64,000 nucleotides of DNA from Octopus vulgaris (GCA_951406725.2 OX597820.1:93434001-93498000), one strand, 5' to 3'; counted from the first letter of the stretch, positions 18,954-49,377 are shown. Numbers and translations are program-made. Notes: a model not told the origin generated them from the letters alone.

Positions 18954-19191
18954 GACATTATTTACATTATTTACATTTGATGGATATTTGTCCTCATCTT
19001 GTTTGTTGTTAACACGTTTCGGCTGATATACCCTCCAGCTTTCATCAGGTGTTTTGGGGAAATTTCGAACCCGGGTTCTTGTTCCTAAGGTTATTATTAT
19101 TTTTATTGTTATTATTCAGGTCACTGCCTGGAATCGAACTTGGAATATTGGGGTTAGTAGCCCACGTTCTCAACCACTATGCCATATGCCC
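18954..19191 (-). mobile_element. tRNA-headed SINE-like element carrying a hammerhead-ribozyme-like motif
   Basis: Head GGGCATATGGCATAGTGGTT...AGTTCGATTCC (A/B boxes), internal AACAC-CTGATGA-A-AGCTG/CAGCC-GAAAC-GTGTT (19011-19053), tail (AAATAATGT)n. Confidence 0.7.
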
Positions 19192-19361
19192 GTGGGTGTA
19201 TGGCATAGTGGTTACAGCTGGATTCCCTTCCCAACACCAGCTGCTTTACAGAGTATACTAGGTGCTTTTTACATAGAAAAGATACATGGCAATCCTAGAT
19301 TTGATGAGGACCTGCAAGGAAGGTAAGTGTGAGATGATGGGTTGCCAAAGCACACACTCAA

Positions 19362-19746
19362 TGTCATCATCATCATTGTTCGACCGTGGTCGAGACAATG
19401 GAATTTACCATGCTACGCCAGACTTCACAGCATTACGGAGGTCCTGTTGCTGGATGCCTGTATCCCTGGAGATTACATCAGGGTAGGAGAGTGTGCGCCC
19501 TCTGGTATTGCGAGTGGATGGCTTCCAGAGGAGAAGAGTAGAAATTACTTCTTTTTCAGCTCTACAACAATGTCCAGCAAACTGGACTCTCCTACCTTTC
19601 ACAAGAGATGACACAGGTGGTAGTTTCCCATATATTTGCATTTTGGTTGGATGGCGCTTCCACGAGAGATTTTGAGCTCTCATAAGGAGGCGAGTGTAGG
19701 TTCCATCCAACCGCCTCTCAAGCTTCTTTGTACACTCAATGTACAA
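19362..19746 (-). mobile_element. RTE-type LINE 3' fragment (end of ORF2) with (ATG)n tail
   Basis: LERRLDGTYTRLLMRAQNLSWKRHPT...RRVQFAGHCCR...LLLWKP...RGR, the post-RT region of RTE/RTE-X ORF2. Confidence 0.85.
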
Positions 19747-19950
19747 GGTGAGTATAATGGAGAATACCTCAATAATTGCTTCTATCTGAGAGAGAGGGAG
19801 GGAAGGAGGGGGAGATGGAAGGGGAAGGAGAGGGAGAGTAAGGGAGAGAGGGAGGGAGGGGAGAATGGAAGGGAAATAGGGAGAGGGAGAGAGAGAGAGA
19901 GACTGACTAATTAAAAACGAATAGTTGAGACAGGTTTGTAATATACTTAC

Positions 19951-20025
19951 TGATCTAACGTAATAACTTCATTTGATTCTGTGTAACTGCGAGCAAGGCG
20001 TAGGGCTAGGTCATTGGCTTCAGAA
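19951..20025 (-). CDS. ETNPPL: ETNPPL-like coding exon (75 bp)
   Basis: tttag|T TCT GAA GCC...GAT CA|gtaag; SEANDLALRLARSYTESNEVITLD(H), completing the NSGSEANDLA PLP phosphate-binding motif. Confidence 0.96.
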
Positions 20026-20228
20026 CTAAATGAAAGAAAGAAAAACAATAATAATTAATGTTATTGTAATAAAAACAATAACACCCACACCCATATTTAT
20101 ATATTTCACTTAGGTGCAGCAATGCTAATAACCTGCTATTAAAACTCTATGTAAATAAGCATCAGAAAAAGCATTACTGAAATAATAGAGCATAATACGA
20201 AATTATATATATATATATATATAAATAA

Positions 20229-21490
20229 ATCAAAATCAAATCAAATCAAACCAAATCAAAATAGATGAACATCAATGGAATTTGTATCTTTGTGGTACCA
20301 GTACCGGTGGCACACAAGAAAACCATCCGAACGTGGCCGTAGCCAGTACCGCATCGAACTGGCCTCTGTGATGTGGGCACATAACAAACACCATCCGATC
20401 GTGGCCGTCCGCCAGCCTCATCTGGCACCTGTGTCGGTGGCACATAAAAACACCAACCGAAGACCCGGCAAGACTAGTCAGGCCATAACCCATGGCCCCT
20501 ACTTGGGACGTAGTCAGTCCACCTGTGCATACCTTCCTTCCTTCTTGTGACACTTGTGAAGACCTGTGAAGACCTGTTGAGGCAAGTGAAAATCAAATCA
20601 AAATAGATGAACATCAATGGAATTTGTATCTTGTGGTACCAGTGCCGGTGGCACACAAGAAAACCATCCGAACGTGGCCGTAGCCAGTACCGCATCGACT
20701 GGCCTCCGTGCTGTGGGCACGCAACAAACACCATCCGATCGTGGCCGTTCGCCAGCCTCATCTGGCACCTGTGTCGGTGGCACATAAAAACACCATCCGA
20801 AGACCCGGCAAGACTAGTCAGGCCATAACCCGTGGCCCCTACCTGGGACGTAGTCAGTCCACCTGTGCATACCTTCCTTCTTGTGACACTTGTGAAGACC
20901 TGTTGAGGCAAGTGAAAATCAAATCAAATCAAAACAAATCAAAATAGATGAACATCAATGGAATTTGTATCTTTGTGGTACCAGTGCCGGTGGCACACAA
21001 GAAAATCATCCGAACGTGGCCGTAGCCAGTACCGCATAGACTGGCCTCCGTGCTTTGGGGACGTAACAAACACCATCCGATCGTGGCCGTCCGCCAGCCT
21101 CATCTGGCACCTGTGTCGGTGGCACATAAAAACACCATCCGAGCGTGGCCGTCTGCCAGCCTCGTCTGGCACCTGTGTCGGTGGCACATAAAAACACCAT
21201 CCGAGCGTGGCCGTCTGCCAGCCTCGTCTGGCACCTGTGTCGGTGGCACATAAAAACACCATCCGAGCGTGGCCGTTCGCCAGCCTCGTCTGGCACCTGT
21301 GTCGGTGGCACATAAAATCACCCACTACACTCTCGGAGTGGTTGGCGTTAGGAAGGGCATCCAGCTGTAGAAACACTGCCAGATCTGACTGGCCTGGTGC
21401 AGCCTTCGGGCTCCCCAGACCCCAGTTGAACCGTCCAACCCATGCTAGCATGGAAAGCGGACGCTAAATGATGATGATGATGATGATGAT
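20229..21490 (+). repeat. Expanded family-C (RTE 3' UTR) insertion with ~341-bp and 62-bp nested tandem repeats
   Basis: atagatgaacatcaatgg restarts at 20261, 20603, 20944; gtgtcggtggcacataaaa recurs at 21113, 21175, 21237, 21299; ends in the family-C terminus and (GAT)n. Confidence 0.9.
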
Positions 21491-21573
21491 ATATAATTGC
21501 AGCGTGGAAGGTGTTTATAAGCCATTTAAAAACACACAAAAACCCTTAGATTCACTTCAACATTTAAATCTAA

Positions 21574-46601: not shown

Positions 46602-46713
46602 TTAAGTATGTATAAGTAATCAAAATAAACCAATGAAATAAGCAAGTAAACAAGTAAATAAATAGATAAATAAAAATAAACAAATGAATAAGAATAATTG
46701 AGTGAATAAATAC

Positions 46714-46865
46714 TAAGCTCTTACAGCTGTTTCTACTAAGGGGTTGCCCAATCTGCAAGGTTTTCCACATCAGGCTAGAAATATACAGGGATTTTACAGA
46801 GGTTGAACAAACATTGGACAAAGGTTGGATAATGACTGAGACCCAAAGCTTCATCAGAGAGATTA
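46714..46865 (-). ncRNA. Type-I hammerhead ribozyme motif with long stem-II insert
   Basis: TAATCTCT-CTGATGA-...-GAAAC-AGCT-GTA-AGAGCTTA: stem I 7 of 8 bp, stem III identical to that at 36155, GUA triplet; stem II imperfect. Confidence 0.65.
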
Positions 46866-47729
46866 TAATGTTAGAAATCTAATATGTGAGGAAGGTAAAA
46901 TAATAGAATAAAATAAAATAATAACATAATAGAAATAGTAAGGAATGGTAAAAATGTCGATTCCAAGGTGATATCTATAATCAATCGGATTACATCTTAT
47001 GCTAAAGAAAGTCACTAACAGGAGTAATTTCCTAAGGTTATGAGAGTTACATCCTATTTCAATTTTACTGGGGGAACTAGCAAGGGTAAGACATTGCAGA
47101 GTGAGTTTAATGGGATGGTCCATATCACAGGGGTCAAAAGTTAGAGGCTAACTGCTATTTAATAGAGCATCATAAAAAGAATTGAGAAAGTTAACTAATG
47201 TGAACTTATTTGGAGAAATCAATAAATAAGTATATCAATGAAAGAATAATTTGGGTAAAACCTTAATGTGATGTTACTACTAATTACTAATTAGTTATTA
47301 ACAAAAACCCACATACTAATACCCCATTGTTAATCCTATAACTTAATTGGTCTGATAATATTTGAAAACAATGGAGTTGTTTAGGTCCTTTAAATCTATC
47401 AATAAAACACAAGACAAAAATAAAAAACTAAAAAACATAAAACAAAAGACCAAACTGTAATTTAAACACTGGACTATATGAACCGTATATGAGACAGAAC
47501 TCTAATTTAAGATATATAAATAATATGCATATATGGTTACAAGATGTCACCAACTGTAAACAACATGAAGTATGAAAACAAGTGAGTTAAATACACAAAC
47601 AATGAGAGAAAAAATATTGAAAACAGGTCAAGTAACACAAAGAACAACCCTTCATCAGTTGTTGGCTGTCTATCTCCTCTTCATTTTGAGCAACATGCAT
47701 GAGTGTGTGTATATATATATATAAATATA

Positions 47730-48235
47730 TACTTTTATTTGTTTCAGTCATCTGACTGCAACCATGTTGGAGCACTGCATTGAAGGGTTTTAGTCAAACA
47801 AATCGACCTCAGGACATATTATTTTTTTTTTAAGCCTAGTACTTATTCTATCAGTCTCTTTTGCTGAAGGACATATACACACCAATACAGCTTGTCAATT
47901 GATGAGGGGGGACAAACACAGACACAAAGAAACACACAGATACATACATACATACATATATATGTATATATATATATATGCATGTATGTATGTATATATA
48001 TACATATATATATATATATATGCATGTATGTGTGTATATATATATATATATATATATATACACATATGTATGTGACGGTCTTCATCCAGTTTCTATTTAC
48101 CAAATCTACTTACATGGCTTTGGTGGGCTCAAGGCTATAGCAGAAGACGCTTAACCAAGGTGCCATGCAGTGGGATTGAACCGGGAACTATGTGGTTGCG
48201 AAGCAAGCATTTTACTACACAGTCATGGCTGTACC
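47730..48235 (-). mobile_element. Family-A SINE (diverged)
   Basis: Reverse-complement similarity to 106-514. Confidence 0.75.
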
Positions 48236-48839
48236 TAACCACATCATCATCTTTATTTAACATCCAAGTTCTATGCTAGCATGGATGGGACTTATATTAT
48301 ATTTTATTGTATCTAGGGAGATTCATTATGCCAATATTATAAACACATACAGAGAAACACATATGCATGCACACACACAGAGTAGCAGAAGTACACACAC
48401 ACACACACACAAGTACATAAACAAACATACACAGAAGCATGCATACATACACACATACATACATAGATATGCAAGAACATGCACAGAGTGGCACACACAA
48501 ACATGCACAGACAAATGTAGTCTCCATAATGGACTAAGAGAAATGTCACTGAAAAGGTTGCAAATATCAATGAAAGAGCTTTGATAAAAAAACAAACAAA
48601 AACAAGACTTACTGTTTAATCAAGTTAAACAAAGAATCAATTAGTTAATTGGATATTTAAACAACCAACTAATAATAAAGAAGTGGATTGAACCAGTGTG
48701 TGTGTTAATAATATTGGTATGATGACTTTCCCTAGACACAACGAAATTTGTTTCAACACATGAATTCACATAAAGAATCTTGCAAACCAGATGCAAAAAC
48801 GAAGTGTGTACGTGTATATATATATATATATATATATAT

Positions 48840-49122
48840 ATCACCATGATCACCGTGACCAACCAGGCTATCAGATGTTGCTACACATTAGCCTTCAAAT
48901 GACGCCACCCCGCTGGCTAAGTGAGCAGGCCAACAGAAGAAACAGTGAGAGAAAGTTGGGGTGAAAGAGTACAGCAGGGATTGTCACTACCCCCTGCCAG
49001 AGCCGTGTGGAGCTTTAGGTGTTTTCGCTCAATAAACACTCACAATGCCCGGTCTGGGAATCGAAACCGCGATCCTACAACCACGAGTCCGCTGCCCTAA
49101 CCACTGGGCCATTGCGCCTCCA
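48840..49122 (-). mobile_element. tRNA-derived SINE
   Basis: Head GTGGAGGCGCAATGGCCCAGTGGTTAGGGCAGCGGAC...GGTTTCGATTCCC; 5' half shared with 30366-30674. Confidence 0.8.
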
Positions 49123-49160
49123 CACATACATACACACACACATATATATATATATATCAT

Positions 49161-49377
49161 AATAATAATAATAAAGAGTATGGAGACTTATACATTCACA
49201 AGATTTATTTTATAGTTATATACAGCATATTATTATAATGACCTATACATATTTCCACCTTATAATATTGTTGGTGCAGCTTCATCAGGGTCTGTTCATT
49301 TGGTTATCTTTGATGCTCTATATAACTATAAAATAAATTTTGTGCATGTACAAGCCTCCATACTCTTTATTATTATT
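49161..49377. repeat. Fold-back: ~65-bp inverted repeat enclosing a minus-strand hammerhead motif (49240-49292)
   Basis: Arms 49161-49228 and 49313-49377 are reverse complements with a few mismatches; the loop reads GACC-CTGATGA-AGCTG-CACC..GGTG-GAA-ATATGTAT-A-GGTC on the minus strand. Confidence 0.8.

What the first reader, a model, noticed from the sequence alone, without database searches (positions are those of the whole stretch)
18954..49377. Cluster of about six minimal hammerhead-ribozyme motifs in unrelated small repeats within one gene's introns
Seen: CUGANGA / stem II / GAAA / palindromic stem III / NUH / stem I topology at 36060(+), 46714(-) and 49240(-), with decayed or variant versions at 19011(-), 21574(-) and 22525(+). 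Known: minimal type-I hammerheads with self-complementary stem III, which cleave as dimers, mark Penelope-like elements and non-autonomous retrozymes. Inference: this genome carries several distinct ribozyme-bearing non-autonomous retroelement families (SINE-like, fold-back, tandem-repeat) that probably use Penelope-like machinery and are unlikely to be annotated as such. No GIY-YIG/RT ORF was seen in the window.
Basis: partly seen in the sequence, partly recalled or inferred. Interest (0 to 1): 0.75.

Follow-up and report, generated by a model that had tools for sequence, protein, structure and literature searches.

The report
Penelope retrotransposon ends with hammerhead ribozymes
Five of the six motifs are hammerhead-type RNA folds in the end pieces of five repeat families built like Penelope-type jumping genes, which litter this octopus-like genome at roughly this density everywhere; most copies here are damaged and likely inert, and self-cutting is predicted but untested.

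Summary
Five of six motifs map onto real type-I hammerheads of five multicopy families; 22525 does not. All lie in introns of one minus-strand class-III aminotransferase gene, but this is not a cluster: 800 kb of evenly spaced genome samples give 21 descriptor hits (shuffled mean 4.6), about one family copy per ~15 kb after rough correction. 36062 is intact and is the 5'-truncated 3' end of an autonomous Hydra-clade Penelope-like element (sister copies: 960-codon RT + GIY-YIG ORF between two hammerhead pLTRs); 49288 is also a Hydra end, 46857 probably. So 'non-autonomous' is wrong for one, probably three. Their stem II is a 57-117-nt rod, covarying in family A, not minimal. 21617 has a swapped G3:C8 core (7,588 exact matches). 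19048 sits in a ~330-bp tRNA-headed unit (38,031 candidates) never seen joined to an ORF here. Copies at 19048 and 49288 carry deletions. PLE hammerheads, solo truncated copies and inverted pairs are published; the scan noted these families before on other DNA of this genome. Cleavage untested. Interest low-moderate.

The parts
34214..36325 (+). Family A: 5'-truncated 3' UTR/pLTR of a Hydra-clade Penelope-like element, inserted in (TA)n
   Evidence: 92-96% to copies that continue into an RT + GIY-YIG ORF; 1021 candidates, best 40 at 93-100%; flanks
36060..36168 (+). Intact type-I hammerhead: CUGAAGA 36062, 86-nt rod stem II, GAAA 36155, palindrome ACAGCUGU, predicted cut after GUC 36166; antisense to host gene
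18955..19193 (-). Family B: tRNA-like head (19193-19115) + (AAT)n + hammerhead + tail
19011..19053 (-). Family B hammerhead, CUGAUGA at 19048; window copy lacks 3 nt including the GUU triplet
19194..19214 (+). Inverted stub of the family B head (head-to-head junction)
   Evidence: sequence shows it directly
21495..21705 (-). Family E: short unit with inverted copy of its own tail at 21634-21705, in (TA)n
21574..21624 (-). Family E hammerhead with swapped core G3:C8 (GUGAACA at 21617), palindrome AAUAUU, UUU triplet, 7-bp stem I; one stem II mismatch here
22263..22880 (+). Family F: old ~1.4-mer direct repeat (period ~440) in (TA)n; no hammerhead at 22525; weak CUGAAGA/GAAAC candidate in the family at window 22586, decayed here
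45920..47440 (-). Family D: 5'-truncated non-coding PLE-type 3' end, interrupted by a SINE at 46191-46607
46718..46861 (-). Family D hammerhead: CUGAUGA at 46857, 117-nt stem II, GAAA 46733, GUA triplet; core intact, rod decayed (z +0.9)
47453..47521 (+). 23-codon scrap of a Hydra-type RT thumb, inverted next to the 5' junction of the D copy
   Evidence: 65% over 23 aa, E 0.005
49152..49381 (-). Family C: 5'-truncated Hydra-clade PLE end with an inverted copy of its tail (49317-49381)
49240..49292 (-). Family C hammerhead, CUGAUGA at 49288; window copy lacks 31 nt of the 57-nt stem II and has a damaged stem III
2680..63066 (-). Host gene, class-III aminotransferase (ETNPPL/PHYKPL-like, name recalled): exons about 63066-63014, 31280-31162, 24484-24325, 20025-19951, from 13488, from 2891
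   Evidence: PF00202 E 0.00065, below the curated cut-off, on one exon

Best explanation
Five of the motifs are hammerhead folds in the terminal repeats of five unrelated repeat families that insert the way Penelope-like retrotransposons (PLEs) do, and the window copies are single, mostly damaged insertions that likely have no effect on the host gene. Shown: family A is the clipped 3' end of a Hydra-clade PLE whose full-length sister has two 870-bp pLTRs, each with this hammerhead, around a 960-codon RT + GIY-YIG ORF; family C copies run back into a Hydra-type endonuclease end; all five families have a palindromic stem III; B and E insert head-to-head with 8-14-bp target duplications. Inferred from published PLE work: in a full-length or tandem element two hammerheads pair through the palindromes and would cut the RNA to unit length; the PLE endonuclease nicks the target and the RT copies from the RNA 3' end, usually stopping early (5'-truncated solo hammerheads) and often leaving an inverted second copy. 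Inferred: B and E, which have a fixed 5' end and no ORF link in my samples, are copied in trans by such enzymes. A lone copy has no dimer partner; the only fully intact canonical one (36062) is antisense to the host transcript.
For: Full-length Hydra element L353: pLTRs 98% identical, hammerheads at both, ORF with RWR, DKT, YRDD, CxCX5C, GIY-YIG, CxxC and CxH motifs matching the clade description read in PMC8557442 section 11. Window A copy is collinear with ORF-bearing copies and family A shows graded 5' truncation with a fixed 3' end at (TA)n. Core intact in 37 of 39 A, 17 of 39 C, 18 of 28 D, 19 of 25 E copies and 27 of 46 B copies picked by head or peptide. Stem II rod: 8 of 35 pairs change on both sides among 9 sequences, 96.5% cells paired, slid controls 27-40%. 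Head-to-head 23 of 50 B and 27 of 28 E insertions; TSD of 8 bp or more in 9 of 50 and 13 of 28 against 15 of 2450 and 11 of 756 mismatched flanks. Background density. Solo motifs from truncated PLEs, opposite-strand pairs 100-700 bp apart, an extra base between 9 and 10.1 and a 2-bp helix I are all described in PMC4209133.
Against: No cleavage evidence of any kind. No ORF partner found for B, D or E (D rests on a 58-bp, 78% match to the Hydra pLTR end, and an adjacent inverted RT scrap). The covariation in the rod comes from about three lineages, so few independent events. Copies were mostly picked by likeness to the window copy (24 of 28 for E). The density correction rests on 4 of 14 B copies passing the descriptor. 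Natural copies of B, C and D do not fold to the hammerhead as their lowest-energy structure, only the C and D majority sequences form the rod.
Confidence: 0.85

Rival explanations
1. All the families are non-autonomous ribozyme retroelements (retrozyme- or SINE-like) that merely borrow PLE enzymes.
For: B and E are short, have a fixed 5' end and no ORF link; F is a 1.4-mer direct repeat; retrozymes are argued to be PLE derivatives (10.64898/2026.07.22.740005, abstract and parts 1-2 of 5).
Against: A runs into a PLE ORF and C into an endonuclease end; D has 1.3 kb or more of graded 5' extension.
Confidence: 0.08
2. Family B is only the pLTR of a protein-coding PLE, not a unit transcribed on its own (an earlier scan note).
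For: A 54-codon frame opens at an ATG inside B and runs through the hammerhead to the very end of the tail, as if the tail were the start of an ORF; a 30-40-bp tail at one end is a PLE feature (PMC8557442 passages).
Against: 0 of 150 best peptide matches have an open frame over 236 aa; 23 copies with a located tail share no continuation; none of 46 head hits or 14 exact-head loci continues into shared non-inverted sequence upstream. Both readings can hold if B came from a pLTR and now moves alone.
Confidence: 0.35
3. The motifs are a selected cluster that cuts or regulates the host gene's pre-mRNA.
For: Four of five lie sense to the host transcript; five in 30 kb is about twice my rough expectation (about 2.2; Poisson P near 0.07 by hand, span chosen after the fact).
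Against: Two sense copies carry deletions through the core or stem II, one has a decayed rod, no two share a family, and the intact canonical one is antisense; density matches background.
Confidence: 0.03
4. The motifs are chance matches in AT-rich repeats.
For: A strict descriptor finds 0 or 1 hit in the window against 0.05-0.24 in shuffles; Rfam finds none; true for 22525.
Against: Family majorities carry complete cores and paired stems with different sequences in each family; sample excess 21 vs 4.6; covariation; position in both pLTRs of a full-length PLE.
Confidence: 0.02

Closest known systems
Minimal type-I hammerheads in pLTRs of metazoan PLEs (Cervera and de la Pena 2014, PMC4209133; parts 1-2 of 4 read, supplements not seen)
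   Same: Type I, palindromic stem III, short helix I (2 bp in D. virilis), extra base between 9 and 10.1, mostly solo copies from truncated PLEs, opposite-strand pairs, thousands per genome, a 3:8 core covariant (U3-A8).
   Different: Helix II there is 6-8 bp; here A, C and D carry 57-117-nt rods. The covariant here is G3:C8. No cephalopod in the parts read.
Hydra clade of C-terminal EN+ PLEs, including Hydra-1_Obim of Octopus bimaculoides (Craig et al. 2021, PMC8557442; abstract, passages, section 11, supplement rows by search)
   Same: Single ORF RT + C-terminal GIY-YIG, RWK-like and DKT motifs, CxCX5C linker, CxxC and CxH, (TA)n targets, hammerheads.
   Different: Published members are generally under 3 kb (Hydra-1_Obim 2507 bp, no pLTR annotated); the element here is about 6.5 kb with long UTRs, 870-bp pLTRs and a rod stem II. 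I did not compare sequences with Hydra-1_Obim.
Schistosoma SINE-like Sm-alpha/Sj-alpha hammerhead elements (review PMC6765202, passages)
   Same: Pol III-type promoter followed by a hammerhead in a short non-coding repeat, like family B.
   Different: Those are often in multimeric repeats that the ribozyme cuts; B is dispersed, has a minimal PLE-type hammerhead and PLE-type inverted insertions.
Animal non-LTR retrozymes (PMC7229834, passages; bioRxiv 10.64898/2026.07.22.740005, parts 1-2 of 5)
   Same: Short non-coding type-I hammerhead repeats, long TSDs, proposed PLE mobilisation or origin; E forms some tandem arrays (three copies 260 bp apart).
   Different: Defined by tandem units and circular RNA; the window copies are monomers and no circle was tested.

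Membership tests
Type-I hammerhead (PLE minimal type) | Core CUGANGA, GAAA, UH in C-G-S order | tested here: met
   A 37 of 39, C 17 of 39, D 18 of 28 copies; B 27 of 46. E meets it only with G3:C8 allowed (19 of 25). Window copies of B and C fail by deletion.
Type-I hammerhead (PLE minimal type) | Helices I and II paired around the core | tested here: met
   Pair tables; rod covariation. Helix I is 2 bp in A, 4 in C and D, 5 in B, 7 in E.
Type-I hammerhead (PLE minimal type) | Palindromic short stem III | tested here: met
   ACAGCUGU (A, D), ACACGUGU (C), ACGU (B), AAUAUU (E).
Type-I hammerhead (PLE minimal type) | Self-cleavage at NUH as dimer | not testable with these tools
   Only assembled contigs were available.
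Type-I hammerhead at 22525 | Core heptamer and GAAA closing stem II | tested here: not met
   Heptamer is CUCAUGA or further off in all 14 family copies where the script could read it; no GAAA follows the stem.
Hydra-clade PLE (family A) | Single ORF, RT then GIY-YIG, DKT, CxCX5C, CxxC, CxH | tested here: met
   L123 (broken) and sister copies L352, L353 (955 and 960 codons).
Hydra-clade PLE (family A) | pLTR direct repeats with hammerheads; (TA)n targets; 5' truncation | tested here: met
   L353.
Hydra-clade PLE (family A) | RT phylogeny groups with Hydra clade | not tested
   No tree built; reference proteins not fetched.
Hydra-clade PLE (families C and D) | Continuity with a Hydra-type ORF | tested here: inconclusive
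   C: endonuclease end upstream (L067 tblastn E 3e-4). D: ORF not reached within 1.5 kb; pLTR-end match E 1.6e-7.
tRNA-derived SINE (family B) | tRNA-like head with A and B boxes at a fixed 5' end | tested here: inconclusive
   Fixed 5' end and A/B-box look-alikes by eye against recalled consensus; ARAGORN 0 genes in 19 loci, no Rfam tRNA match at E<=10.
tRNA-derived SINE (family B) | Non-coding, no link to own ORF | tested here: inconclusive
tRNA-derived SINE (family B) | Transcribed by RNA polymerase III | not testable with these tools
   No raw reads or Pol III data.
Non-LTR retrozyme (families E, F) | Tandem units each with a hammerhead; circular RNA | tested here: inconclusive
   E mostly solo or head-to-head, one three-copy array; F tandem but hammerhead doubtful; circles not testable.

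The most novel reading that the evidence does not exclude
Family B is a polymerase III-transcribed, tRNA-headed SINE of 38,000 or more copies that is copied by Penelope-like reverse transcriptase and endonuclease rather than by a LINE, having taken over a PLE terminal repeat with its hammerhead; alongside it, family E is a natural G3:C8 swapped-core hammerhead in thousands of copies that still cuts, and the Hydra-clade rod on stem II is a selected element that standard descriptors miss.
Probability: 0.35. Interest if true: 0.6.

Novelty: new member of a known kind. Interest (0 to 1): 0.3.

Why it matters
As given, it is an expected by-product of a PLE-rich genome: useful for annotation (Rfam misses all five motifs) but not surprising. 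Three details would matter if shown at the bench: a SINE-like unit moved by PLE machinery would widen the known partners of short retroposons; a natural high-copy G3:C8 core and 60-120-nt stem II rods mean hammerhead counts in animal genomes are underestimates; and young, intact Hydra-clade elements with two pLTR hammerheads give a direct test of the open question what PLE hammerheads do.

Tried and rejected
Rfam scan of the window and of the intact motif: no hammerhead. ARAGORN and Rfam on the B head: no tRNA call. Pfam on the L123 ORF pieces: nothing useful. Search for an ORF partner of B: 30 GIY-YIG loci were mostly Neptune-type and none had A-F hammerhead regions within 1.5 kb; peptide search, flanks and tblastn of held loci negative; the one longer database protein (P0001) shares only the first ~36 residues with B and continues into an unrelated sequence. 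The C3:G8 matches looked like a canonical sister of E, but they are a different family picked by my own pattern, so I do not count them as covariation. A type-I reading of F with a 1-bp stem II and 130-nt loop III was considered: subfamily changes are not compensated and 5' ends do not gather at the cut site; left open as weak. RNA: no RNA holder listed as on record; laying contigs of four runs gave no ends or joints that bear on cleavage. Luense et al. 2016 could not be read (not held); it is cited only through the review PMC6765202. Paper searches: hammerhead+Penelope+octopus (5 papers), SINE+Penelope+hammerhead+tRNA-derived (2), C3-G8/G3-C8 (2; one mentions an engineered G3-C8 variant), PLE+SINE+Pol III (21), Hydra+stem II (1): listings showed no description of a PLE-mobilised tRNA SINE, a natural G3:C8 family or rod stem II, but most subscription papers, Repbase and the hammerhead supplement of PMC8557442 were not seen.
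Full report
Setting. The window is G000:C7:93434001-93498000 of a 2.8-Gb genome; related proteins carry Octopus names. It holds a minus-strand class-III aminotransferase gene: exons about 63066-63014, 31280-31162, 24484-24325, 20025-19951, from 13488 and from 2891 (PF00202 E 0.00065 on one exon, under the curated cut-off; the ETNPPL/PHYKPL label and exon motifs are recalled). All six sites are intronic.

Checking the motifs in the window alone. 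A strict type-I descriptor finds nothing with stem I of 3 bp and one hit (36062) with 2 bp, against 0.05 and 0.24 in 100 shuffles. A relaxed descriptor that allows an extra base after A9 and a G3:C8 core finds only 21617, against 0.22 in 50 shuffles. Rfam reports no hammerhead. So the window by itself proves little; the families decide.

Families. Each site was searched in the genome: A 1021 candidates, best 40 at 93-100%; B 3860 by DNA and 38,031 by its peptide; C 55; D 230; E 3061 and 7,588 exact 18-mer matches; F 110. All are lower bounds. All core positions are intact in 37 of 39 A, 17 of 39 C, 18 of 28 D and 19 of 25 E copies (window copies left out, most copies picked by likeness to the window) and in 27 of 46 B copies picked by head or peptide. 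Stems differ in sequence between families and pair in each; stem III is palindromic in all five.

Family A (36062+). The window copy spans 34214-36325, starts and ends in (TA)n and is collinear at 92-96% with copies that continue upstream into a broken ORF with RT, thumb, CxCX5C linker and GIY-YIG. Copies are 5'-truncated to graded lengths with one 3' end. The endonuclease has 17,817 candidates in the genome and open frames up to 960 aa among the 150 scored. L353, a sister at 70-76% over the pLTR, is a full element: two 870-bp pLTRs 98% identical, a hammerhead in each, a 960-codon ORF with RWR, DKT, YRDD, CxxC and CxH. These match the Hydra clade as described in PMC8557442 section 11, whose supplement lists Hydra-1_Obim from Octopus bimaculoides. 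The motif folds with z -5.0. Its 86-nt stem II rod keeps 96.5% of cells paired over 9 sequences with 8 of 35 pairs changed on both sides; slid controls give 27-40% and at most 1 such pair; about three lineages contribute, so events are few. Helix I is 2 bp, as in D. virilis Penelope (PMC4209133).

Family C (49288-). The family has a 57-nt rod; the window copy lacks 31 nt of it, so its short stem II is accidental. Longer copies run back into a Hydra-type endonuclease end (L067, E 3e-4). The 'fold-back' is an inverted copy of the element's own tail.

Family D (46857-). The family core is CUGAUGA at 46857 with a 117-nt rod; the nearer CUGAUGU at 46809 is not a core in the family. The window copy spans about 47440-45920, split by a SINE; its rod no longer folds well (z +0.9). 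Non-coding sequence extends 1.3 kb or more upstream without reaching an ORF. A 58-bp, 78% match to the end of the L353 pLTR and an inverted 23-codon RT-thumb scrap at its 5' junction point to the Hydra clade but do not prove it.

Family B (19048-). Unit of about 330 bp: tRNA-like head with A- and B-box look-alikes (by eye; ARAGORN 0 in 19 loci; no Rfam tRNA), (AAT)n, minimal hammerhead with 5-bp helix I and GUU, tail. The window copy has lost 3 nt including the triplet. 23 of 50 insertions are head-to-head and 9 of 50 have a TSD of 8 bp or more, against 15 of 2450 mismatched flanks. For it: a 54-codon frame runs from an ATG in B to the end of the tail. Against it: no open frame over 236 aa in 150 matches, no shared continuation in 23 of 25 copies where the tail was located, no shared non-inverted sequence before the head in 46 head hits and 14 exact-head loci. 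I read B as pLTR-derived but now moving as a short unit, at about even odds.

Family E (21617-). Core GUGAACA, that is G3 with C8, 7-bp helix I, 5-bp helix II, palindrome AAUAUU, UUU triplet; a good copy folds with helices I and II as its lowest-energy structure (z -2.8). With C8, 98 of the first 100 listed matches have G3; with G8 there are 573 matches, 21 of the first 100 being G3 decay products and 79 a different family. 27 of 28 insertions carry an inverted tail (24 picked by likeness, 2 of 3 in the even sample) and 13 of 28 a TSD, against 11 of 756. A U3-A8 variant is published for Schistosoma PLEs; G3-C8 turned up only as an engineered variant in my search.

Family F (22525+). An old 1.4-mer repeat in (TA)n. 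A CUGAAGA/GAAAC pair 60 nt downstream in the family could form a type-I fold with 1-bp stem II and a 130-nt loop III, but nothing I tested supports it.

Is it a cluster? Eighty evenly spaced 10-kb stretches give 21 descriptor hits against 0-8 (mean 4.6) in 8 shuffles, 1.7 per 64 kb; the window has 1. Profile searches find 18 B hits (14 with the core), 4 E, 3 C-like, 1 A-like, 1 F, 0 D in the sample. Only 4 of those 14 B copies pass the descriptor; scaling the excess of 16 by that gives roughly one hammerhead-family copy per 14-15 kb, 4-5 per 64 kb (hand arithmetic, rough). The window's five are ordinary.

How it likely works. Shown: positions, families, ORF link for A and C, insertion architecture. 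From the literature (PMC4209133 parts 1-2, PMC8557442 passages, PMC6765202 passages): PLE hammerheads with palindromic stem III are inactive as monomers and cut slowly as dimers; insertions are 5'-truncated, often with an inverted copy and a 30-40-bp tail at one end. Inferred: in full-length elements the two pLTR hammerheads cut out the unit RNA; target-primed reverse transcription leaves the solo and inverted ends seen here; B and E are copied in trans. The window copies have no same-family partner on the host transcript, two are deleted, one is decayed, and the intact canonical one is antisense, so an effect on the gene is unlikely.

Novelty. The class, its solo copies and its presence in Octopus are published. 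Rod stem II, the natural G3:C8 family and the tRNA-headed unit did not appear in the listings, but Luense et al. 2016, Repbase and the hammerhead supplement of PMC8557442 were not seen. The scan has noted each of these features before on other DNA of this genome. Verdict: real but largely expected; interest 0.3.

Noticed in passing
window 47620-47700 (-), CUGAUGA at 47658: Decayed relative (75% over 86 nt to L232) of a repeat in which GAAA lies upstream of CUGAUGA and stem partners are out of order (L147, L186, L232, L260); fits the rewired, SGC-like hammerhead that earlier notes describe. GAAA is damaged in the window copy.
   Followed up: partly
L008-L014, L018-L022, L025, L026; L124-L126: 13-14 of 30 family A hits are one ~500-bp A fragment carried inside a larger repeat, at least 6.7 kb at 98% identity; the carrier was not identified.
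   Followed up: partly
L263, L268 and other rows: A young Neptune-type PLE family with many identical 781-codon open frames.
   Followed up: partly
L192, L214, L243; L203, L223; L209; L194; L253 (even sample): At least four more type-I hammerhead families not present in the window, several with 45-60-nt stem II; L243 has two copies 274 bp apart.
   Followed up: no
L327-L345: A further family with CUGAAGA, a 5-bp stem II and imperfect stems I and III, several hundred copies.
   Followed up: partly
P0001: A predicted Octopus membrane protein begins with ~36 residues read from family B; possible exonisation or a gene-model artefact.
   Followed up: no
window 20232-21322: Tandem array of a SINE-like repeat, 2.7 units of 342 bp then 4.1 units of 62 bp.
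   Followed up: no
window 54775-55531: 21 copies of a 36-bp minisatellite at 95% identity in intron 1.
   Followed up: no
window 3145-3472 and 7393-7825 (+): Open frames that look like mariner and Tc1 transposase pieces (labels recalled).
   Followed up: no
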